Shown here piece by piece: positions 3-64,000 of a stretch of DNA of 64,000 nucleotides; the first letter of the stretch is position 1; every line of letters begins with the position of its first letter. The position numbers and the translations under genes were made by a program. This DNA comes from a virus: IMG/VR virus record IMGVR_UViG_3300045988_106448, one strand, 5' to 3'. Below the pieces are notes generated by a model, which worked only from the letters and a program-made list of their open reading frames with translations, was not told where the DNA came from and searched no databases.

Positions 3-374
3 AATTGTGAAAAGTTTCCTCAAGAATTATTTGAAAATATAGGGGGTTGGATAGTTTTAAAAGATTGTTATGATGTTCACCATATAAATGAAGACAGAAC
101 TGACAATCGGTTAGAAAATCTTGAAATTTTAACTCGAGGTAAACATACTGCAATCCACAATTTAGAAAAGACAATTATAAGAGATGATACTACGGGTAGA
201 ATAATTGGTGTCTTTAAACGAGGTGAATTGCTGGGAAGTCCAGAGGTGGATAATCAGCAGCCAAGCATTAGTAGTAATACTTTTGAAGGTTCAACGACTA
301 ACAGCCGAATCCAAACAGATAATGCTGAGGATAGTAATGCTGACACGAGTGCCTCGCCCCTATTTATAGGGTGA
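3..374 (+). CDS. HNH homing endonuclease, 5'-truncated by the window edge
   Basis: Frame 3 translates to ...WIVLKDCYDVHHINEDRTDNRLENLEILTRGKHTAIHNLEKT..., the classic HNH motif (HH..N..NL..H..H); the ORF runs off the left edge. Confidence 0.7.
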   Translation, partial: NCEKFPQELFENIGGWIVLKDCYDVHHINEDRTDNRLENLEILTRGKHTAIHNLEKTIIRDDTTGRIIGVFKRGELLGSPEVDNQQPSISSNTFEGSTTNSRIQTDNAEDSNADTSASPLFIG

Positions 375-463
375 AGATATAGTCTGAACTTTGCAAATAA
401 CCTAAAAGTAAAGCAAAGAAATAATAGGATAAAGAGCCTATTAGTGTAACAACTCCACATAAA

Positions 464-26933: not shown

Positions 26934-28547
26934 ATGGACATTAAAGTATTATTTGACGATTCAGCCCGTGAAGGCTTGTATGAAGGGGTGAAACAAATTA
27001 CCCGTGCCGTGGCTTCTACACTCGGACCGAAAGGACACACGGTTATCATTGATAAAGGTTATGGCATTCCCCACGTGACCAAAGACGGGGTAACGGTGGC
27101 TCGTGCCTTTGATACGGATGACACCGTGGCTCGCATGGGTGCAACCCTCGTTAAGATGGCAGCCGCTAAAACGTGTGACGAAGCCGGAGACGGTACCACT
27201 ACCGCCACCATTCTTACGGAAGCTCTCATACGGTTAGGGATGGAAAAGATGCACCTCGTGAAAAATCCACAACAATTTAAACGAGGAATTGAACGTGCTT
27301 GTGAAGAGGCGGTAGCCTTCATTGACAATTTGAAATATGAAATCGATCCTACGGATTTTACCCGGTTAGAACAAATTGCTACCATTTCAGCGAATGGAGA
27401 CGTGGAGATAGGAAAGGTAATTACCGGGGCTATTCAACAAGTGGGCAACGATGGGATCATCACCGTGGAAGAAGGTGATAACTCTTCTGAGATAACGGTT
27501 GATATCACGACAGGATTCCAATGGTCAAAGGGGCTTGTCAATCCCTATTTCGTAACCGATCGAGAACGTATTGAATGCGTGTTAGACAATCCATACGTTC
27601 TAATACTAGGGCAGAAAGCCAATTACCCGCAAGAAATTCTTCCGGTGGTTCAAACCGTGTACACCGCTAAACGTAGTTTACTTATTGTCGCTCCAGACGC
27701 CTCTAACGACGTCATAAAGTTCCTCGTAACGAACATTGCCAAGGAAAACGGGTTAAAGGCTTGCTTCGTTAAAGCCCCCGGCTATGGACAGGTTCAGAAG
27801 GATATGTTGGAAGACCTAGCCGTGAAGATGGGCGGTAAGGTGGTTGGAGGGGAATCCGCTCAAACCATTGAACAACTAGGTACAGATTGGTTAGGTGAAT
27901 GTGATAGAGCGGTTGTCACCTCTACTCAAACCACCCTAGTTGGAGGGGCGGGTACCGAAGAGGAAATTCAAACCCGTGTCAAGGCTATCAAGAACCAGAT
28001 TGATGACACCTCTAACACCTTTGATAAAGAGAAGTACCGTGAACGCATTAGCAAGTTAACCGGGGGAGCCGCCGTGATACACGTTGGAGCCACTAGCGAG
28101 GTTGAGATGAAGGAACGCAAAGACCGAGTAGACGATGCCATAGCCGCCACACGTGCAGCCATTGACGAGGGCTACGTGCCGGGTGGAGGTATGATGCCAT
28201 ATCAGGCAGCACAATATCTAACGGGTTGGACAACCAATACCACGGAGGATGAACGTGTGGGAATTGAAGTGGTAATCGGGGCTTTACGTGCACCTTTCCG
28301 TCAATTGTGCATGAATGCCGGGGTAAACCCTGATAAATACGAAGCGGTAATAGAAACCAAAATCGGAAGTGAGTGGCGCAAGGGGATTGACTTTTCTTCC
28401 ATGTGCATCGTGAATTTGTTTGAGATTGGGGTAATTGACCCCGTTAAGGTTACACGCCTTGCGTTGCAGAACGCCGTGAGCGTTGCCATACAGTTCCTAA
28501 ATACTTCGTGTGTTATGGCTGAGCCGCCTAAAGACAAGAAGTCATGA
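26934..28547 (+). CDS. groEL: GroEL/Hsp60 chaperonin
   Basis: AREGLYEGVKQITRAVASTLGPKGHTVII..., GDGTTTATILTEAL; full-length 537 aa. Confidence 0.9.
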   Translation: MDIKVLFDDSAREGLYEGVKQITRAVASTLGPKGHTVIIDKGYGIPHVTKDGVTVARAFDTDDTVARMGATLVKMAAAKTCDEAGDGTTTATILTEALIRLGMEKMHLVKNPQQFKRGIERACEEAVAFIDNLKYEIDPTDFTRLEQIATISANGDVEIGKVITGAIQQVGNDGIITVEEGDNSSEITVDITTGFQWSKGLVNPYFVTDRERIECVLDNPYVLILGQKANYPQEILPVVQTVYTAKRSLLIVAPDASNDVIKFLVTNIAKENGLKACFVKAPGYGQVQKDMLEDLAVKMGGKVVGGESAQTIEQLGTDWLGECDRAVVTSTQTTLVGGAGTEEEIQTRVKAIKNQIDDTSNTFDKEKYRERISKLTGGAAVIHVGATSEVEMKERKDRVDDAIAATRAAIDEGYVPGGGMMPYQAAQYLTGWTTNTTEDERVGIEVVIGALRAPFRQLCMNAGVNPDKYEAVIETKIGSEWRKGIDFSSMCIVNLFEIGVIDPVKVTRLALQNAVSVAIQFLNTSCVMAEPPKDKKS

Positions 28548-31282: not shown

Positions 31283-31308
31283 AGGGGGCGAAAGCCCCCT
31301 CTTTTGTT
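31283..31308. terminator. bidirectional rho-independent terminator between convergent genes
   Basis: agggggc-gaaa-gccccct then cttttgtt. Confidence 0.7.
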
Positions 31309-31870
31309 AGTTGCCCGCCGGGGTAACGTTGTAGGAACGATTCATCCACGCTTCTTTTTCCATGGATTCTATCATGTCTTCCAGAAAATTCAGGGTAGCC
31401 AAATCATTTTCAGGAATCTGAGCGTGAATATCACGAATAACACGCACCATTCTGTCCCAGTCATCCCTAATGTGTTTCCACATATCAATTTCCTGTGGAA
31501 CGGCTTCCGTCATGGAAAATTCTGGAATATGGTTATGGCTTAACATGGCTTCCATACTTCCTAACGGGCGGTGACCCAAAGCCCGTACACGTTCAGCCAC
31601 GTCGTCAACTCGTTCGATTTCCGCCTCGTATAACTTTAACATGGCTTCATGATATGAACCAAATGATTCTCCTACCACGTTCCAATGGAACTGCCACGTC
31701 TTGAGCATCAAGGTAAAATGGTCAGCGAGTAAACCATTCAATAATTTAGCACTCCTTTCAAGTTCTTCAGGAGTTAATCCGGTATTAATACTCATAATTA
31801 AAATGATTAGATTGTTTATAAACAAATAATATACGGTAATGACAAAATAAAGTTTGTAACCTTGTAACAA
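31307..31870 (-). CDS. Dps/ferritin-like DNA-protection protein
   Basis: LNGLLADHFTLMLKTWQFHWNVVGESFGSYHEAMLKLYEAEIERVDDVAERVRALGHRP matches Dps ferroxidase-site helices. Confidence 0.7.
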   Translation of the reverse strand: MLQGYKLYFVITVYYLFINNLIILIMSINTGLTPEELERSAKLLNGLLADHFTLMLKTWQFHWNVVGESFGSYHEAMLKLYEAEIERVDDVAERVRALGHRPLGSMEAMLSHNHIPEFSMTEAVPQEIDMWKHIRDDWDRMVRVIRDIHAQIPENDLATLNFLEDMIESMEKEAWMNRSYNVTPAGN

Positions 31871-31937
31871 AATATTTTCACCCCACGTATTAGTATTGTG
31901 TTTATCACATAATAGTTTTAGGGTTTATTGTTTGTCA

Positions 31938-33953: not shown

Positions 33954-33987
33954 TCCCTATTTTCTTTGCCGTTTACAAAGTAAACAC

Positions 33988-34284: not shown

Positions 34285-34890
34285 ATGGATGCTAAAGAGG
34301 TGGATGCTGCCCTAGTAAAAGAGGCACTCGATGGGAGCCAAAAGGCATACGAAAAACTATTCAATAAATACCGCTATTCCTTGCGGTATTCAATTTTACA
34401 AATTGTGAGGGATGAGGAAACCGCCAACGATTTACTCATGGAATCTTTTAGTAGAGCCTTTCTAAACCTGAAACGTTACACTACGGATTTCGCCTTTAGT
34501 ACATGGTTATTCCGCATAGGGGTAAACTGTGCGATAGATTATAAACGCAAGCACGGGCGGGTAGTGATGTGCCGTATAGAACAGGACGATCCCGATAGGG
34601 AAGACCGCCCGATGTTCGTTATTCCTGACCCTGACCGTACCCCGGCGGATGCTGCCATACAAAGACAACGTGTCGATTTAGTGCGAGGCGTTATCGCACA
34701 ATTGCCGGAACCTTTCTACACTATGGTTCACCTACGGTACATAGACGGGTTTGCCTATGATGAGATAGCCGATGAGTTAGACGTGCCGTTAGGCACCGTT
34801 AAAGCCTCGCTACACAGGGCGAAACAATTGTTGTGGGAACGCCTCGCTGAAGACAAAAGGTATAAGGAGATACTAACCGAGGAGATATAA
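34285..34890 (+). CDS. ECF-type sigma-70 family sigma factor
   Basis: Region 2 YRYSLRYSILQIVRDEETANDLLMESF...FSTWLFRIGVNCAIDYKR; region 4 HTH YDEIADELDVPLGTVKASLHRAKQLL. Confidence 0.75.
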   Translation: MDAKEVDAALVKEALDGSQKAYEKLFNKYRYSLRYSILQIVRDEETANDLLMESFSRAFLNLKRYTTDFAFSTWLFRIGVNCAIDYKRKHGRVVMCRIEQDDPDREDRPMFVIPDPDRTPADAAIQRQRVDLVRGVIAQLPEPFYTMVHLRYIDGFAYDEIADELDVPLGTVKASLHRAKQLLWERLAEDKRYKEILTEEI

Positions 34891-35371: not shown

Positions 35372-35695
35372 ATGAATACCGTGGCGAAAGAACAAACCAA
35401 ATTCGTGATGAGCAAAATGCAAATCCCAATACCTTCAGTGATAGAAGAATTAATTAGAAAACGTTACGCCGATTCCCCCGTGTTACACGTGGGTGTAACC
35501 ATACAACGGGACGCCATTAGCCGGGATGGCGTGCCCGCATTGTACACCGTTAGTGACGTTGACCCGCTCCTATTGTTGGAGGAAATAAGGGACATTATTA
35601 ACAATAAACGCCTCGATTTAGCCGACAAAATTATGGACGTGCACAAGGTATTACAGAAAATAGAAAAGACGCATGAAGCAAGTAAAGGTTATTAG
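35372..35695 (+). CDS. hypothetical protein
   Basis: ORF only. Confidence 0.35.
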   Translation: MNTVAKEQTKFVMSKMQIPIPSVIEELIRKRYADSPVLHVGVTIQRDAISRDGVPALYTVSDVDPLLLLEEIRDIINNKRLDLADKIMDVHKVLQKIEKTHEASKGY

Positions 35696-36047
35696 TATTG
35701 GTAGTTCTCCAAATTATGAACAGGTGAACCACATACAAGAGTTGCTAAACACGGGATGGGAAATACAGGCTTGTACTAGCACGTATATTTTACTCATCTT
35801 AGAATCCACAGATCGAGTTCAAGAACTAGAACCTACCACTTTCAAAGAACGGTTGCAGATAGAGGAACAGGAGCTAAACATCAAGCTAACAAAACTCACA
35901 CGGTTTCTAGACAAAACGTTCCTAACCGAGGACACGAAATTAGACCCTACACAGCTTGAATTAATGGTTGCTCAACAGCAACACATGGAACAATACCTAA
36001 CAATATTGCACGAAAGAATGAAACTATTGGGCATCCCCACCGTATAA
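35673..36047 (+). CDS. hypothetical protein
   Basis: ORF only. Confidence 0.35.
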   Translation: MKQVKVISIGSSPNYEQVNHIQELLNTGWEIQACTSTYILLILESTDRVQELEPTTFKERLQIEEQELNIKLTKLTRFLDKTFLTEDTKLDPTQLELMVAQQQHMEQYLTILHERMKLLGIPTV

Positions 36048-36089
36048 TTCCGTACTGTTTTCATATTTATTAGATAATTAATATTTCTT

Positions 36090-36117
36090 GCCGCTCCCAT
36101 GTCGGGGGCGGTTTTAT
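36090..36117 (+). terminator. hairpin plus T-run terminator
   Basis: ccgctccc-atgtc-gggggcgg then ttttatt. Confidence 0.45.
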
Positions 36118-36308
36118 TATGGTTGCCATTTTGGCGACCGGAAATAAGGCGTTTTAAGGGATTATTACGCCGTGGTAATACCCCAACATTACCACATATT
36201 ACAGTACCTTAAACGGGCTAACAATCGGTAAACAAAACGGGGATGTTATATTGGGGAAGGGAAATAGAGGTTGCGGCGGTTGCACCATACCACTACCAAC
36301 AACAAAAA

Positions 36309-36330
36309 CACCGGGGTATATACCCCGGTG
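36309..36330. terminator. perfect palindrome hairpin, likely the terminator for the minus-strand gene that ends at 36389
   Basis: caccggggtata|taccccggtg; on the minus strand it is followed by tttttgttgttgg. Confidence 0.5.
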
Positions 36331-36388
36331 CAAACACTATGTAAAACAAACCAAACAATAAATTCCTATTTTAGTGACCAGAAATAGA

Positions 36389-37022: not shown

Positions 37023-37075
37023 AGGGTGCGTTATACAGCGCACCCGGTTTGTATCATGGAGAACCGAAATAGGGG

Positions 37076-37363
37076 TTATAACAGGTTTGTTGCGGCGTAA
37101 TAATGTGGGTACCTTCCTAATTGCGTGTTGCAATTGTAGCTCGTGAATGCGTTCACCATGCTATCAAACGGCACGTTATCGCATTCCTTTGCATTCGTCG
37201 TGTACAATAAACCCCACGGAGTATTTATGTTCATTCGGCACGGTAACAAGTGTATTTCATGCCCGGCGTTGTACAACCGTTTTGCAACGGTTTTGTTCAC
37301 TTGCTTTACCTGTACTTTCTTGCCGTACACGGTAACGGTTAAGATTTGGTTCTTGTGTAACAT
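37076..37363 (-). CDS. hypothetical protein
   Basis: ORF only. Confidence 0.3.
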   Translation of the reverse strand: MLHKNQILTVTVYGKKVQVKQVNKTVAKRLYNAGHEIHLLPCRMNINTPWGLLYTTNAKECDNVPFDSMVNAFTSYNCNTQLGRYPHYYAATNLL

Positions 37364-37399
37364 GGCTTTTGTATTTTGGGTGTGGGAAATAGGGTTAAT

Positions 37400-38768: not shown

Positions 38769-39356
38769 TTATTCAAGCGTTATCCTGTAATAGGTTTCCA
38801 ATACCCGTGCGAAAATGGCATTAATAGCGGGTGAAAACGCTTTTACAAGAGTATTCTCGAGCAAGTACGTTTCCTCAAAGTACTCCCGCAATAATTGTAC
38901 TCCCATGCGGAGATCGGCGGCATCCGTGCAACAAAAGTACGGGAAAATAAAGTTTACAATATAATTGGCAGCGGGCGAAAAATCACCATGCCCCGGGGCG
39001 AACACGGGGTTTGTACCTAATTGCGCTTGTAAAGCCGTTGTAATGGTGTTTACCGCTTGTTTGGTGGCGTACAAATCTACCCGCCTGTTAAGCAAATAAG
39101 GCGTTAAGCGTTTACGCACGTAATTAGCCGGGGTAACGGGGTACCCGAGCGGGCACAGTACCACGCTATTCGGAGTTACCCGTATTAGGGTGTACGGCAC
39201 GGGGCATTTACCGTGCACAAAATACACCGCCATACCGGGTTGAATTAAGGTTTGCAAAGCGTAGGCAAATGTAGGGAGTTCCCCCTTAACGGGTGCGGTT
39301 GCGTTGTTTATAACTTGTTGCGGGTTAAACGTGTTTAGGGTGTTGTATGTTGCCAT
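38769..39356 (-). CDS. hypothetical protein
   Basis: ORF only. Confidence 0.4.
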   Translation of the reverse strand: MATYNTLNTFNPQQVINNATAPVKGELPTFAYALQTLIQPGMAVYFVHGKCPVPYTLIRVTPNSVVLCPLGYPVTPANYVRKRLTPYLLNRRVDLYATKQAVNTITTALQAQLGTNPVFAPGHGDFSPAANYIVNFIFPYFCCTDAADLRMGVQLLREYFEETYLLENTLVKAFSPAINAIFARVLETYYRITLE

Positions 39357-39479
39357 TTTATTTAAGTTTTAAAGGTTATTACTGTTTGTTACCGGGGCTA
39401 GCCCCGTTGTGTTATTTGCATATACAAATATAATACAATTATTTGGTACTACAATAAGTTAGCACAATTAATTCAACTT

Positions 39480-40001
39480 TTAGGGCTTATTTATATCCAT
39501 TATAAACAATTCCAGCGGGTAGCGGCTATTGTATAACCGGGGGTTATTGGTTATGCGGATTAGGTATAACAAAAAGTTATTCTTAATATTATTGCAGCCG
39601 TTAAGGCTGCATATACAGGCGTGCCACCTATACGGGCACACGGGGGTCGTATAGCCCGGTAGGGGCGTTATTGGGGTGTAAAGGGTGTAACAGGTAGGCG
39701 GGGTATATTGGGACGTGCCGTGGATACCAAAACGAGCGGGAATTAATTTTGCTCCTAGCCAACCGGGGTAAAAATATTTTGGGGCATAACTTTTGGTTAT
39801 CGGGGTATAACTAAAAGTTATAGGAGTAAGGGGTAACGGACGTGGAGGGGGCGTGGTAACTACACGTACCCACAGGGGAATAGGGTGGGAACGAATGCGG
39901 GGTTGCCCCTGACAGGGGGTTATATTAGGGAATGGAATTGGTTTTGGGCGGTACCCGATAAAAACATTTTGGGCAACCCACAGCCCGATAGGGCTACGCA
40001 T
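39480..40001 (-). CDS. doubtful ORF (Pro/Thr/Tyr-rich) lying in hairpin-rich DNA
   Basis: YTPIT-type repeats; the DNA carries repeated ataacttttggttat / tataactaaaagttata inverted repeats. Confidence 0.2.
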   Translation of the reverse strand: MRSPIGLWVAQNVFIGYRPKPIPFPNITPCQGQPRIRSHPIPLWVRVVTTPPPRPLPLTPITFSYTPITKSYAPKYFYPGWLGAKLIPARFGIHGTSQYTPPTCYTLYTPITPLPGYTTPVCPYRWHACICSLNGCNNIKNNFLLYLIRITNNPRLYNSRYPLELFIMDINKP

Positions 40002-41388
40002 ACAGGGGCTAGTAATAGTATAGGGTAATAGGGTACACGGGTATCGAGGGGAGGTGTACGGGGTGTTTTGAGGGGTGCGGTTTAGGGTAGTTTGAGAGGT
40101 TGATAGGGTGTTACGGGCGGGGTTGATAGGGTAATTTGAGCGGTTTGGTTTAACCGCTAGGAACGTTTTTACGAGTGGTTATTTGGGGTATTTTGAGCGG
40201 TTTTGTTGCGGGCGTGTTTCCCAATACTAGCGCCAAAGCACGCAACACCCTCCCAATCCTTCCCCACTCAACCGCCCTGTAACCCCGCCAACAAGTCTCC
40301 ACAGTTTACCCCCGTCCATTACCCCTCTACCCTATGCCCGTGCCATGCCCCACGGTTATACTGATAACGTGCGGGCTTGTGTGTAGTTGGTGGGTGCGCT
40401 GCGTGTCCACGGCGCACCCGTGGAATGCGTGTGCCCGGTTTACAGACTGTAAGCAAAACCACCGCAAAAAGTTACAAATTGTAATCATTGCTAGGTATTA
40501 CAATATATAAGCAAAACGGGTCATTTTGATTACAAATTGTAAGTTTAGGGATAAAATACGGATGCGGTTTTACCCGCCAAACATAGCCCCTAACAGATCG
40601 GAGAGAGTGTCACGGAGGGGTACACCACCCCCTCCCCCGGAGATCATGAACGTCGTGTAAATCCGGAAGCTACAATAGACGGCGTAAAGGGCTCGTGGAG
40701 GCAAAGAAAGGAACCTCCCCGAATAAAACCCCCGAGAGCAACCTCCTAATCCTATACAGACATTATAGAGATCTCCAAGAAACCCCTGACTCCCATCCCT
40801 AATCCCATTGAAACACGTCAGTCATTTGCAGTAGAACCCCTGAGAATAATCCTCAACCTCCTCCCCCGAAAACCAACCCCAACAATATATCTGGAGAACC
40901 CCTTGTCGAAACCCTGATACCTACCCCTGCCTCTATTACCCCATGTAGCCCTATACCCCTACCCCATGTCATCAGTATCCAAAACACATTTTCTTTTTGT
41001 GATAACCTACTCCACCCCCGGATGATTACACGTGGAGAATCCTAGCGTCGATAAATCCTAAAACCGAATTTTCAAATTTTTAGAAATTCCGCCTGATCCG
41101 AAATTGTCATTTACCGATTTCACGGATGGTGTTGGAAGTCGGCTCGGTAGATGACACGCTTCTCCTACACACCCCTCTCCACGCCTCTTTTCGTCTAGAA
41201 AGAGAATAACACGGGTGTCGACACGTGGACATACTGTTTGTCCACGGTGAAATAACGGATTCACTCTGAAGTCACATCGGTAATTGGGAACGTGATAGGA
41301 ACCCTCCTATCGAATTCCTATACCCCTCCCCGCACCACTATCGTTCCCGTCAGAATATCATATCATCGACAGATTTTCCTATCCAAAA
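40002..41388. other. approximately 1.4 kb ORF-free control region: degenerate 21-23 bp direct repeats, palindromes, and a switch from G-rich to C-rich composition; candidate origin or divergent promoter region
   Basis: No ORF of 60 aa or more apart from one implausible minus-strand ORF; repeats of the form GGTnnTTTGAGnGGTTGATAG; the palindrome ttacaa-a-ttgtaa occurs twice. Confidence 0.55.
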
Positions 41389-41469
41389 TTGCAACTCTCC
41401 ACGTCGACACGGCGTATAGGGGTTGTATTTAATCGCCTGTTGGCACTAACACTTAAAACGAGAAAGATT

Positions 41470-42090
41470 ATGACAGACAATCAAGCACTCAATCTTGGCA
41501 TGGCAATGCACCTCCTATTCAACTCTCTAAGCTACGGTCGCGACATCGTAAACAAATCCATGGAATGCCACAGCCATGACCGTAACAACACGGTCACGAT
41601 CAACTACTCCTTCATCGGTGGACACCTCACTATCAATTGGGTCACCGTGGGTGATAACAGAGATGACGACATGACCATTGCTCTGCGACGGATGGTTGCC
41701 ACACTCGAGGATGGGGAGGACTCTACCACGCCCCTGTTCAACATCGATCGATGCAACGGTCTTTACAATAGTCCATTCCACACCCTAGCGGATGACGAGA
41801 AGGAATGGGCACGTGAAACCATAGCAAATCACAACACCACGTATCAGCAGTGTTCACTTTCTATCATCGGTCGTGGACTGCCTCCGAGCACGCCAAAACA
41901 TTCCCCCACGTTGACACCTTCCTATTTACAGCATCAACGCATGAAACTTGCCACGAAACTCTATTCCCAATTCCTCAGTGAGTACACGGGTTCGATCGCT
42001 GACGTGGAGGATGACAGCAAGAAATTGGCATCCGTAGCCGTGGCATCGGCTGATATACTTATCAACCAACTTAAATCTCAGGAATCATGA
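41470..42090 (+). CDS. hypothetical protein
   Basis: Start set at the Met with the aaagattATG context (ORF opens at 41389). Confidence 0.4.
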   Translation: MTDNQALNLGMAMHLLFNSLSYGRDIVNKSMECHSHDRNNTVTINYSFIGGHLTINWVTVGDNRDDDMTIALRRMVATLEDGEDSTTPLFNIDRCNGLYNSPFHTLADDEKEWARETIANHNTTYQQCSLSIIGRGLPPSTPKHSPTLTPSYLQHQRMKLATKLYSQFLSEYTGSIADVEDDSKKLASVAVASADILINQLKSQES

Positions 42091-63032: not shown

Positions 63033-63851
63033 TTATTTCTTTTGTTTTATATACTCTTCCTCCCAATTATCGTTTACAAAATCATCGCATTCTTTTTGAT
63101 ATTTCTTATCATATATTTTAAACACCACGGTATCAAGTTTTTTACGACCTCTACGTTTGTATTCACCTCTGGAAACCAAACAATATTTAAACATTAATCT
63201 AGATTCAGAATTGTTTGCAAGTTCCTTTTTGGCGGGCAATAGTACTCTTTTTTCAAAGTCTTGAATTGTGTAATTAGGAGTTGTTAAACTGTACGCAAGT
63301 TCATCCACCGACACTTCCAAAATTCGTTTAGAATACTTTCCGCTTAATAATTGAAAAATACGTTTGGCATAAGTACCACTTAACGCTAATACAGAATTTT
63401 TATCATACAAAGTCCCTCCAACGCCTTTACCGTAATAGATGAGCCACCGTAAAGCCGCCACCGGAATTCCTAATTTTACTTTATCACCGTCATCACTCAA
63501 ATCCATAGTTTGAATTAAATGGCACGTTCTATGAAATACTTCTCCCTTTTCATCAGTATAAGTGTAATACACATTTTGATTGAAAAGTTTCTTAATTTCG
63601 TTAAGTACCGCGACCCCATGCCTATTTCTTTCAACATCATCGGGGTCAATTTCTATCTCTAAAGTTCCGTCTTTAGAGAGGTTTAAATGTTTACGAAATT
63701 CATCAAAATCGGCTGTTAACCAACTAACATCAGTTGTCATAGCGGGTTGCAATTGATCTACTATATTTACAAGACAATTTATTTGCCAACTTGAAAACTT
63801 ATAACGACCATAAGTCACTAAGTTTGATTGCATTATTGTTTCCTTTTTCAT
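63033..63851 (-). CDS. Rep_3/RepB-family theta-replication initiator-like protein
   Basis: Central LRWLIYYGKGVGG...LALSGTYAKRIFQLLSGKYSKRILEVSVDELAYSL...DFEKRVLLPAKKELA matches the winged-helix pattern of plasmid Rep_3 initiators; iterons lie just upstream. Confidence 0.55.
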   Translation of the reverse strand: MKKETIMQSNLVTYGRYKFSSWQINCLVNIVDQLQPAMTTDVSWLTADFDEFRKHLNLSKDGTLEIEIDPDDVERNRHGVAVLNEIKKLFNQNVYYTYTDEKGEVFHRTCHLIQTMDLSDDGDKVKLGIPVAALRWLIYYGKGVGGTLYDKNSVLALSGTYAKRIFQLLSGKYSKRILEVSVDELAYSLTTPNYTIQDFEKRVLLPAKKELANNSESRLMFKYCLVSRGEYKRRGRKKLDTVVFKIYDKKYQKECDDFVNDNWEEEYIKQKK

Positions 63852-63873
63852 ACTTTAAATTTTAATTTGCTGC

Positions 63874-63881
63874 AAATGTAC
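63874..63881 (-). promoter_or_regulatory. -7 box TACATTTG on the minus strand, for the rep-like gene
   Basis: caaatgta on the + strand, 23 nt upstream of the minus-strand ATG at 63851. Confidence 0.45.
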
Positions 63882-63945
63882 AACAATAAATTTACATGGC
63901 AAAGAAAAATTGTGCCTTTTAATTAAAGGGCGAAACATAGTTCCC

Positions 63946-64000
63946 CCTGTTTATTTGCGCACAGACGCCTGTTTATTTGCGCACAGACGCCTGTTTATTT
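63946..64000. repeat. iterons: 22-bp direct repeat cctgtttatttgcgcacagacg, at least 2.5 copies (truncated by the window edge)
   Basis: Exact tandem copies at 63946-63967 and 63968-63989, with a partial copy to 64000. Confidence 0.8.

What the first reader, a model, noticed from the sequence alone, without database searches (positions are those of the whole stretch)
40002..41388. 1.4 kb ORF-free control region: iteron-like repeats, palindromes, and an abrupt switch from G-rich to C-rich composition (candidate origin or divergent regulatory hub)
Positions 40002-40230 are G-rich on the + strand and carry about five degenerate 21-23 bp direct repeats (ggtgttttgaggggtgcggtttag / ggtagtttgagaggttgatag / ggtgttacgggcggggttgatag / ggtaatttgagcggtttggttta / ggtattttgagcggttttgttg). 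From about 40240 the + strand becomes strongly C-rich with many CCCC runs (ccccctcccccgg, cctcctcccccg) for more than 1 kb. Embedded in the region are two copies of the palindrome ttacaa-a-ttgtaa (about 40476 and 40521), each preceded by taagcaaaac; the hairpin tccacgg-cgcac-ccgtgga; and a recurring CCACGG/CGTCGACACG motif (41216, 41401). The region separates a minus-strand gene block from a + strand block. Candidate roles are a replication origin, a packaging or terminal region, or a large non-coding RNA.
Basis: seen in the sequence. Interest (0 to 1): 0.7.

Follow-up and report, generated by a model that had tools for sequence, protein, structure and literature searches.

The report
Conserved non-coding control region in gut phage
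A 2.1-kb gene-free stretch between two oppositely transcribed gene blocks of an uncultured human-gut phage is real, packed with clustered repeats and unusually well conserved, but it is probably a DNA-level control region and not the main replication origin, which lies 23 kb away next to a Rep initiator gene.

Summary
The ORF-free span is 39357-41469, because the 173-aa minus-strand ORF at 39480-40001 is frameshifted in relatives. It holds the most extreme positive and negative GC skew of the 64-kb window and 4 of its 5 canonical G4 motifs. Several motif clusters occur nowhere else in the window.

About 15 related human-gut phage contigs keep a 2.0-2.3 kb gene-free gap at this position. Blocks of the gap are 96-100% identical, while neighbouring genes are only 82-92% identical at third codon positions.

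The origin reading is weakened. A textbook Rep_3 initiator with perfect 22-bp iterons lies at 63033-64000. Those iterons are absent from the finding. The local "iterons" vary from 1 to 4 copies, have no AT-rich flank and no DnaA boxes, and the skew polarity is terminus-like.

The edges carry a host-type leftward promoter (39455-39425) and a phage-ECF-sigma-type rightward promoter (41390-41418). Rfam found nothing, and no covariation supports an RNA.

Best reading (about 40%): a multi-operator DNA control or insulator region. A sister clade has its Rep_3 iteron origin at the syntenic position, so an auxiliary or ancestral origin role stays open (about 20%).

The parts
39357..41469 (.). The whole gene-free region between the leftward block (stop/start at 39356) and the rightward block (ATG at 41470)
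   Evidence: for this window. A gap of 2.0-2.3 kb lies at the same place in all relatives.
39425..39455 (-). Predicted host-type (Bacteroidota) promoter for the leftward block: ATTG-N19-TATATTTG
   Evidence: One mismatch to this phage's rigid [TC]TTG-N19-TAnnTTTG consensus. The 39406-39444 block is retained even in relatives that lack the adjacent gene.
39531..40005 (+). G-rich conserved block, overlapped by a spurious 173-aa minus-strand ORF
   Evidence: It is 96.6-98.7% identical in 7 relatives whose neighbouring genes are 82-95% identical at codon position 3. 1-nt indels break the ORF.
39533..39580 (.). First pair of ATAAC-N5-GTTAT palindromes (39533-39547, 39566-39580)
   Evidence: Only four exact copies exist in the 64-kb window, all here. 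Substitutions among relatives fall in the 5-nt spacers.
39786..39821 (.). Second pair of ATAAC-N5-GTTAT palindromes (39786-39800, 39807-39821)
   Evidence: Most relatives carry a fifth copy near 40350.
40023..40131 (+). Two canonical G-quadruplex motifs on the + strand (40023-40051, 40106-40131)
   Evidence: Regex scan; only 5 such motifs occur in the window.
40061..40202 (+). Iteron-like direct repeats GGGTAnTTTGAGnGGTT (40061, 40085, degenerate about 40107, 40129, 40186)
   Evidence: Relatives carry 1-4 copies. This is the least conserved block (71-94%), although the last copy is invariant.
40204..40245 (.). Central imperfect inverted repeat (GTTGCGGGCGTG ... CACGCAAC) that spans the G-rich to C-rich switch
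   Evidence: Read; skew profile. The 40186-40345 block is 94-98% conserved.
40406..40424 (.). Hairpin or palindrome TCCACGG-CGCAC-CCGTGGA
   Evidence: Conserved in all relatives, including L006.
40440..40542 (.). Four TTACAnAnTGTAA palindromes (40440, 40472, 40498, 40530) arranged as a 58-nt duplicated unit with TAAGCAAAAC
   Evidence: The block is 99-100% identical in 6 relatives. In L010, L014 and L006 it is replaced by another allele that still carries 3 GTTACAAnTTGTAAC-type palindromes.
40661..40716 (.). Invariant 56-nt block (AAGCTACAATAGACGGCGTAAAGGGCTCGTGGAGGCAAAGAAAGGAACCT)
   Evidence: Identical in every relative, including the more divergent L006. A 22-mer from it retrieved 6 human-gut metagenome contigs.
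40717..40944 (+). C-rich, indel-prone module with AACCCCTGA-type repeats and two minus-strand G4 motifs (40783-40806, 40939-40965)
   Evidence: Largely deleted in L001, L007 and L008. Motifs.
40945..41165 (.). Conserved block r3
   Evidence: 96-100% identical in relatives and alignable in L006.
41122..41282 (+). Two copies of ACGGAT-N7-GAAGTC-N3-TCGGTA (41122-41149, 41255-41282) that flank the GTGTCGACAC palindrome (41215-41224)
   Evidence: Read. GTCGACAC is unique to this region. An indel hot spot lies between the two copies.
41390..41418 (+). Predicted phage ECF-sigma promoter TGCAAC-N17-CGTATA, 52 nt upstream of the ATG at 41470
   Evidence: The motif has 3 matches in the window against 0.34 expected (P about 0.007), all on the + strand at gene boundaries. 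Ten other loci keep it with changes only in the spacer. The phage's sigma factor is ECF-type. Caveat: L001 and L016 have a 4-nt insertion in the spacer.

Best explanation
The finding is a conserved, non-coding, DNA-level control region of about 2.1 kb (39357-41469). It lies between two divergently transcribed blocks of small genes in an uncultured human-gut phage of roughly 113-118 kb, judging by the longest related contigs. The promoter type points to a Bacteroidota host.

Its two edges carry the promoters of the flanking blocks. A host-sigma promoter faces left, and a promoter of the type read by the phage's own ECF sigma factor faces right.

The roughly 1.9-kb core has no recognisable promoter. 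It is a mosaic of clustered binding-site-like motifs:
- 4-5 ATAAC-N5-GTTAT palindromes
- 3-4 TTACAA-N-TTGTAA palindromes
- 1-4 GGGTAnTTTGAGnGG direct repeats
- GTCGACAC palindromes

These motifs sit in mirrored G-run and C-run DNA.

The inferred mechanism is that sequence-specific dimeric DNA-binding proteins, not yet identified, occupy these arrays. They build a higher-order, possibly looped, complex that times and insulates expression of the two blocks. The G/C-run, G4-prone DNA would act as a structural or barrier element.

The region is not the Rep-dependent origin, which lies at about 63.9-64.5 kb.

Shown: the anatomy, the conservation, the absence of coding capacity, and the existence of a separate Rep_3 origin. 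Inferred: promoter activity, protein binding, and the switch or insulator function.
For: - Position. The region lies between divergent blocks in the window and in every relative.
- Edge promoters. The host-type consensus in this phage is rigid ([TC]TTG-N19-TAnnTTTG). It occurs once in the region, at 39455(-), facing the leftward genes. TGnAAC-N16/17-CGTAT occurs 3 times against 0.34 expected. One copy sits 52 nt before the 41470 gene, and in relatives only its spacer varies. The phage sigma factor at 34285-34890 is ECF-type and has its own host-type promoter.
- Motif clusters. They are unique within the 64-kb window. Substitutions fall in palindrome spacers, not in half-sites. The palindrome family survives wholesale allelic replacement of its block.
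- Purifying selection. Blocks are 96-100% identical where neighbouring genes are 82-92% identical at codon position 3.
- Non-coding status. The indel spectrum, stop codons in all frames, and frameshifts in the only long ORF all point the same way.
- DNA-level function is favoured over RNA. The core has no canonical or ECF-type promoter, no Rfam hit and no covariation.
- The origin role is assigned elsewhere. A Rep_3 gene, perfect iterons and an AT-rich tract lie at the window's right end, and the iteron co-varies with the Rep allele.
Against: - Size. Two kilobases is far more than a promoter/operator switch usually needs.
- Distance. The palindrome clusters lie 80-950 nt from the predicted promoters and do not overlap them.
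- No binder. No regulator gene was identified. The neighbouring proteins have no Pfam or PHROG hits, and the AF2 model of the 206-aa neighbour is poor.
- Unexplained conservation. Long stretches without recognisable motifs are almost invariant. The extreme mirrored G/C composition is also not explained by operator function.
- Promoter caveat. The ECF-type promoter has a 4-nt spacer insertion in L001 and L016.
- Sister clade. The syntenic non-coding region there holds a Rep_3 iteron origin, which favours an origin-related history.
Confidence: 0.4

Rival explanations
1. The region is an auxiliary or second replication origin, or a still-active descendant of an ancestral one. The repeat and palindrome arrays would recruit an unidentified initiator. 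Alternatively, inward transcription of the G-rich strands would form R-loops that prime the phage's T4-like replisome. The Rep_3 origin at about 64 kb would then serve another phase, such as plasmid-like or early theta replication.
For: - In the sister clade (L023, L024) the syntenic non-coding region adjoins a Rep_3-like gene. That gene is 26% identical to this phage's Rep_3 (E = 2e-13). The region carries 5-10 phased 22-bp iterons plus TACAAATTGT-type palindromes and G5/C5 runs.
- One short motif, GTAATAGTATAGGG(T)AATAG, is shared beyond all shuffles.
- The local repeats have a 22-24 bp period and keep their consensus despite changes in copy number.
- The region lies between divergent operons, as does the 2.7-kb non-coding region that holds the origin of the V. 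cholerae satellite PLE (PMC7145576).
- The phage encodes UvsX, SbcCD, Dda-type helicase and RNase H, so several initiation modes are plausible.
Against: - A complete Rep_3/iteron/AT-rich origin exists elsewhere, and its iterons do not occur here.
- No initiator gene or Rep pseudogene is adjacent.
- There are no DnaA boxes.
- GC content is 44-52% around the repeats, with no AT-rich unwinding element.
- The repeat array is the least conserved module and drops to 1-2 copies in L008 and L013.
- Skew polarity is terminus-like.
- nhmmer finds no homology to the sister-clade region.
Confidence: 0.2
2. The region encodes one or more long non-coding RNAs, or a very long 5' leader of the rightward operon. 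The conserved blocks would be RNA structure or protein-binding platforms.
For: - Conservation of a non-coding sequence is extreme.
- In several small hairpins the variation is confined to the loop, for example GCAGCC-GTTAA-GGCTGC. In another hairpin the stem changes give G-U pairs on the + strand.
- Weak (2-mismatch) host-type promoter matches face inward at 39415(+) and 41103(-).
- Three terminator-like hairpins lie on the minus strand of the right half.
Against: - Rfam gives no hit even at E <= 5.
- Covariation is not above the shuffle controls: 85/500 and 134/500, with 1 compensatory pair out of 148. Power is low because divergence is small.
- The core has no good promoter of either type.
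- The right half is too G-poor (skew down to -0.54) to fold extensively.
- Large internal modules are deleted or swapped between relatives.
Confidence: 0.12
3. The region is the junction of the virion DNA ends (cos, pac or a terminal-repeat boundary), or a programmed break site. The mirrored G-rich motifs would be oriented like Chi-type end-protection signals around a double-strand end near 40.2 kb. By analogy it could also be a T5-like injection-stop region next to early genes.
For: - The G-rich polar motifs lie on the + strand to the left and on the - strand to the right of 40230. By established RecBCD/Chi orientation rules, this is the orientation in which Chi-like sites would face nucleases entering at a central end.
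[quoted passage not shown] This matches the description of the 1662-bp T5 iss region (10.1101/866236).
- The long assemblies break at the Rep iterons and not at physical ends, so the true termini are unknown.
Against: - There is no evidence on termini. Contig breakpoints inside the region are scattered: 39615, 39636, 40114, about 40275, 40733, 41070, 41169 and 41459.
- The paired DnaA boxes of the T5 iss are absent.
- No terminase gene lies in the 64-kb window.
- The Chi sequence of the presumed host is unknown.
Confidence: 0.1

Closest known systems
Large untranslated repeat region (Repeat Region 3, iss) of phage T5 and T5-like phages
   Same: Both are untranslated stretches of more than 1.5 kb full of stop codons. 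[quoted passage not shown] Both are conserved better than the surrounding ORFs and sit next to small early-type genes (10.1101/866236; here).
   Different: The T5 region lies in the left terminal repeat about 8% from a defined end and carries 8 paired DnaA boxes. Here no DnaA boxes are present, the termini are unknown, and the mirrored G-run/C-run composition has no T5 counterpart.
[quoted passage not shown]
   Same: Both are multi-kilobase non-coding regions between divergently transcribed operons with several repeat families (PMC7145576).
   Different: The PLE region works with an adjacent RepA_N initiator whose iterons lie inside it. Here the only initiator gene found (Rep_3) is 23 kb away and has its own, unrelated iterons.
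Rep_3-type iteron origins (R6K, pPS10, F, P1), including this phage's own origin at 63.9-64.5 kb and the sister-clade origin
   Same: Direct repeats with a period of about 22 bp, as in R6K and pPS10 (PMC4980987). The position is syntenic with the sister clade's Rep_3 origin. From my own recollection, not a test: the local repeats contain TGAGnG, a hexamer shared by several Rep_3 iterons.
   Different: The copies are degenerate and number 1-4. There is no adjacent rep gene, no AT-rich unwinding element, and no match to the cognate iterons.
Divergent promoter/operator (immunity-type) regions of temperate phages such as lambda OL/OR
   Same: Arrays of 13-17 bp palindromes, in pairs 21-33 bp apart, lie between divergent transcription units. 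Mosaic allele replacement occurs between related phages.
   Different: No repressor gene lies inside or beside the region. The palindromes do not overlap the predicted promoters. The region is several-fold larger and strongly strand-skewed. No lysogeny genes were seen in the window.

Membership tests
Iteron (Rep_3-type) replication origin | Three or more phased direct repeats of 17-22 bp that are well conserved among copies | tested here: inconclusive
   There are 4 copies plus 1 degenerate copy. Spacing is 24, 22, 22 and 57 nt, and TRF reports 67% match. Relatives carry 1-4 copies.
Iteron (Rep_3-type) replication origin | A cognate initiator gene adjacent to the iterons, with the iterons matching that initiator's binding sites | tested here: not met
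   The flanking proteins have no Rep domain, and no Rep pseudogene is present. The genome's Rep_3 gene (63033-63851) has its own iterons, AAATAAACAGGCGTCTGTGCGC, which are absent from the region.
Iteron (Rep_3-type) replication origin | An AT-rich DNA-unwinding element beside the iterons | tested here: not met
   GC content is 0.485-0.52 across 39900-40299. For contrast, an AT-rich tract of about 75% A+T flanks the true iterons in L020 at 700-775.
Iteron (Rep_3-type) replication origin | DnaA boxes or origin-type GC-skew polarity (a cumulative minimum) | tested here: not met
   No TTATCCACA match with up to 1 mismatch lies in 39357-41469. The region is a local cumulative-skew maximum.
Iteron (Rep_3-type) replication origin | Supports initiation of replication | not testable with these tools
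   This needs marker-frequency analysis or a plasmid replication assay.
T5-type injection-stop (iss) untranslated repeat region | [quoted passage not shown] | tested here: met
   Description of the T5 region.
T5-type injection-stop (iss) untranslated repeat region | Pairs of DnaA boxes inside the inverted repeats | tested here: not met
T5-type injection-stop (iss) untranslated repeat region | Location inside a long terminal repeat near the end that enters first | not testable with these tools
   The assemblies break at the Rep iterons and not at physical ends. No read data are available.
Divergent promoter/operator control region | Divergent transcription units with outward-facing promoters at the edges | tested here: met
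   Gene orientation. Motif-level promoters lie at 39455-39425(-) and 41390-41418(+). These are predictions, not measured start sites.
Divergent promoter/operator control region | Palindromic operators that overlap or adjoin the promoters, with a cognate regulator encoded nearby | tested here: not met
   The nearest palindromes are about 80 nt (ATAAC-N5-GTTAT) to more than 800 nt from the promoters. No HTH or regulator domain appears in the flanking genes.
Structured non-coding RNA (any Rfam family, e.g. GOLLD, ROOL, HEARO) | A match to a covariance model | tested here: not met
   No hit at the gathering threshold or at E <= 5.
Structured non-coding RNA (any Rfam family, e.g. GOLLD, ROOL, HEARO) | Covariation that supports a conserved fold | tested here: inconclusive
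   There is 1 compensatory pair out of 148, and the scores do not exceed the shuffles. The sequences differ by only 1-4%, so power is low.

The most novel reading that the evidence does not exclude
The region could be an initiator-independent replication and recombination start site. Mirrored arrays of G4-prone G-runs and palindromes converge on a central inverted repeat near 40.2 kb. There an R-loop or a programmed double-strand break would form, for example through the phage's own SbcCD-like nuclease acting on extruded structures. The flanking polar G-rich motifs, oriented like Chi sites, would protect the two new ends. UvsX and a Dda-type helicase would then start recombination-dependent replication. 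On this reading it is a second origin that works without a Rep protein and has replaced the Rep_3 origin found at this position in the sister clade.
Probability: 0.08. Interest if true: 0.8.

Novelty: new variant of a known kind. Interest (0 to 1): 0.45.

Why it matters
Large, strongly conserved non-coding regions are rare in phage genomes. [quoted passage not shown]

This one belongs to an uncultured clade seen in many human-gut metagenomes. It combines near-invariant blocks with swappable modules and the most extreme strand-mirrored G/C-run composition in the 64-kb window. Nothing in Rfam, Pfam or PHROGs accounts for it.

Knowing what binds it, or whether it replicates, is transcribed or is cut, would show how this phage group organises its early programme. 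The region also offers compact cis-elements and a candidate phage ECF-sigma promoter for Bacteroidota genetics. The practical result here is to move the 'origin' label to the Rep_3/iteron locus at the window's right end.

Tried and rejected
- Stop-codon recoding (TAG, TGA or TAA reassigned). All three stop codons occur in all six frames, so this was rejected.
- The 173-aa ORF at 39480-40001 as a real gene. It is frameshifted by 1-nt indels in relatives, has low-complexity composition and no family hit, so this was rejected.
- Small conserved ORFs inside the region. Each candidate is interrupted by indels in relatives.
- Rfam at the gathering threshold and at E <= 5. Nothing lies in the region.
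- RNAalifold and pair counting on 39531-40005, both strands. No significant covariation was found.
- tRNA and tmRNA search. None found.
- Nucleotide similarity to GenBank phages. None found.
- IMG/VR. It gave only one relative (L001/L011). L012 was a chance 19-mer match.
- A GTDB genome scan with the 212-aa neighbour. It found nothing, so no host or prophage clue emerged.
- DnaA boxes. None in the region.
- Rep iterons inside the region. None.
- A Rep_3 pseudogene in the region. None.
- nhmmer and local alignment against the sister-clade non-coding regions. Only one 20-nt motif exceeded the shuffles.
- A long-range left/right inverted repeat. Only short matches explicable by composition were found, and the fold z-score was a modest -2.4.
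- The idea that the ends of full-length contigs mark genome termini. Contigs end in the Rep iterons, so this was rejected.
- AlphaFold2 model of the 206-aa neighbour. Mean pLDDT was 52.6, too poor for a fold search.
- Sigma-70-type promoter and terminator scan. Hits were no more frequent than in shuffles.
Full report
**What the window is.** The window comes from a large tailed-phage genome. It encodes a DnaE-type polymerase, NAD ligase, class II RNR, UvsX-like recombinase, SbcCD, Dda-type and other helicases, RNase H, GroEL, ferritin, HU and an ECF-type sigma factor. Its best protein matches are to Tenacibaculum, Cellulophaga and Chryseobacterium phages at about 39% identity. No GenBank phage matches at the nucleotide level. 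Its promoters have the Bacteroidota form, [TC]TTG-N19-TAnnTTTG. Relatives come from human-gut metagenomes, on contigs of up to 113-118 kb.

**Checking the observation.** The region is truly non-coding and larger than reported.
- All six frames carry all three stop codons.
- Only 22 of 112 indels among relatives are multiples of three.
- The adjoining 173-aa minus-strand ORF (39480-40001) is low-complexity, has no family hit, and is frameshifted by 1-nt indels in six relatives.

The gene-free span is therefore 39357-41469. Every relative has a gap of 2.0-2.3 kb at the same place.

The compositional switch is the strongest in the window.
- The maximum 200-nt GC skew is +0.67 at 40001 and the minimum is -0.54 at 40801. 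The window mean is 0.11 with SD 0.15.
- GGGG runs reach 24.6/kb on the left and CCCC runs 18.5/kb on the right, against 4.3 and 2.1/kb elsewhere.
- Four of the window's five canonical G4 motifs lie here.

I add four ATAAC-N5-GTTAT palindromes at 39533, 39566, 39786 and 39807, the only exact copies in the window. I also add a duplicated ACGGAT-N7-GAAGTC-N3-TCGGTA unit at 41122 and 41255, read.

**Conservation.** The region is a mosaic across 11-14 related loci.
- Near-invariant blocks: 39531-40005 at 96.6-98.7% identity, 40441-40564 at 99-100%, and 40945-41165 at 96-100%. A 56-nt stretch at 40661-40716 is identical everywhere.
- Indel-prone or swapped blocks lie between them. The iteron-like array is only 71-94% identical and has 1-4 copies. 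The C-rich 40717-40944 module is largely deleted in three relatives. The palindrome block is replaced wholesale in L010, L014 and L006 by another allele that still holds three palindromes of the same family.
- Neighbouring genes in the same genomes are only 82-92% identical at third codon positions and 90-97% at first and second positions.

Most of the core is therefore under strong purifying selection. Among closely related genomes the block diverges independently of its flanks, which points to recombination between modules.

**Is it the origin?** The window's right end answers much of this.
- The gene at 63033-63851(-) is a Rep_3 initiator with WH1 and WH2 domains.
- It has a consensus host-type promoter and, upstream, perfect 22-bp iterons AAATAAACAGGCGTCTGTGCGC. 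Two full copies lie in the window; L020 and L021 show three full copies plus a partial fourth, next to an AT-rich tract.
- A relative whose Rep is 79% identical has a correspondingly altered iteron.
- Short-read contigs end exactly in this array.

This is the textbook origin of the genome. Its iterons do not occur in the finding.

The finding itself lacks the defining features of such an origin.
- It has no adjacent initiator gene and no Rep pseudogene.
- It has no DnaA boxes and no AT-rich element beside its repeats.
- Its skew polarity is terminus-like and purely local.
- Its repeat array is the least conserved part.

One finding keeps the origin idea alive. A sister clade of about 103-107 kb (L023, L024) has conserved gene order: ferritin, sigma factor, HU and PNK phosphatase. 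In that clade the syntenic non-coding region adjoins a Rep_3-like gene. It carries 5-10 phased 22-bp iterons, TACAAATTGT-type palindromes and G5/C5 runs. Sequence homology to the finding is nearly absent; one 20-nt motif stands out. The sister region also has no strand-mirrored skew.

**Transcription signals.**
- The only good host-type promoter in the region faces left at 39455-39425. It is retained even where the adjacent gene is missing.
- No host-type promoter lies directly upstream of the 41470 gene. TGCAAC-N17-CGTATA sits at 41390-41418.
- This ECF-type motif (AAC at -35, CGT at -10, which is established ECF-sigma knowledge) occurs three times in the window against 0.34 expected (P about 0.007). 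All three copies are on the + strand at gene boundaries.
- Two of the three copies could be checked in relatives. In both, the hexamers are kept while the spacers vary.
- One lineage (L001, L016) has a 4-nt spacer insertion in the 41390 copy, which is a caveat.
- The roughly 1.9-kb core between these promoters has no match with fewer than two mismatches to either promoter type.

**RNA hypothesis.** Rfam gives nothing, even at E <= 5. RNAalifold structures on either strand of 39531-40005 show one compensatory pair out of 148, and the covariation measures do not exceed the shuffles. Power is low because the sequences differ by only a few percent. The right half is too G-poor to fold extensively. 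Together with the lack of promoters, this favours a DNA-level function.

**Best explanation (confidence about 0.4).** The region is a DNA-level control region. The promoters of the two divergent blocks lie at its edges. Its core consists of arrays of binding-site-like palindromes and repeats that unidentified proteins would occupy to time and insulate expression. The G/C-run, G4-prone DNA may act as a structural barrier.

**Rivals.**
- Auxiliary or ancestral origin (about 0.2), supported mainly by synteny with the sister clade and by analogy with the PLE non-coding region.
- Long ncRNA or leader (about 0.12).
- Virion-end, packaging, break-site or T5-iss-like region (about 0.1). This is suggested by the Chi-like convergent orientation of the G-rich motifs and by the close anatomical resemblance to the T5 untranslated repeat region. 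It cannot be tested without reads.

**Novelty and interest.** The kind of element is known: a long, repeat-laden, conserved non-coding control region in a phage. This variant is undescribed. Its features are mirrored G/C runs, unique motif families, modular alleles, presence across an uncultured clade seen in many human-gut metagenomes, and separation from the Rep origin. It matches no curated family. Interest is moderate: the conservation and composition are unexplained, but no mechanism is demonstrated, and the main origin role is better assigned to the Rep_3/iteron locus at the window's right end.

Noticed in passing
window 63033-64000 (minus strand); L020 1-943; L025 1-130: A textbook iteron origin lies at the window's right end. 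It comprises a Rep_3 (WH1+WH2) initiator gene, a consensus host-type promoter (63903-63873), and perfect 22-bp iterons AAATAAACAGGCGTCTGTGCGC. The window's end cuts the array; L020 shows three full copies plus a partial fourth and an AT-rich tract. The iteron sequence co-varies with the Rep allele, and short-read contigs end in the array.
   Followed up: yes
L023 6050-7757; L024 5416-7503: A sister phage clade of about 103-107 kb has a Rep_3-like gene at the position syntenic to the finding. Next to it lie 10 tandem 22-bp iterons (CCCCCATTTGGGGGGTTTTATA) or 5 copies of a second iteron type (ACCCCCAnnnnTTTGTAnTATC).
   Followed up: partly
window 167-408 (+): A group I intron (Rfam RF00028, 58.7 bits). 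It is 85% identical at the nucleotide level to the crAssphage dUTPase / intron-HNH region. A GIY-YIG homing-endonuclease-like ORF lies at 2191-2979.
   Followed up: no
window 34285-34890; 31863-31890; 36019-36045; 41390-41418: The phage encodes an ECF-type sigma factor driven by a host-type promoter at 33965. The candidate cognate promoter motif TGnAAC-N16/17-CGTAT occurs three times. The copy at 36019 reads into a G-rich non-coding gap and is followed by a terminator-like hairpin near 36098-36125, so it may produce a small RNA.
   Followed up: partly
window 36048-36388 and 37023-37399: Two further gene-poor, G-rich gaps of 341 and 377 nt lie left of the finding. They share AATAGGG-type motifs with it. 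The first is less conserved (about 78-81% identity where alignable).
   Followed up: no
window 38769-39356 (minus): The gene immediately left of the region is a variable cargo slot. It is absent in L001 and L009 and is replaced by unrelated genes of 90, 133 or 257 aa in L008, L007, L005 and L010.
   Followed up: partly
window 33002, 33965, 43694, 45584, 50033, 53882, 57808, 59112, 63903(-): Host-type promoters in this phage have an unusually rigid architecture, [TC]TTG-N19-TAnnTTTG, often extended to TTTTTCTTTGC. They are scattered within the rightward gene block as well as at operon starts.
   Followed up: partly
window 26934-28547; 31307-31870(-); 35673-36047: The phage encodes a GroEL chaperonin, a ferritin, and a protein related to crAss001_48 (the Pfam family shown as 'Sequestin' in precomputed hits).
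   Followed up: no
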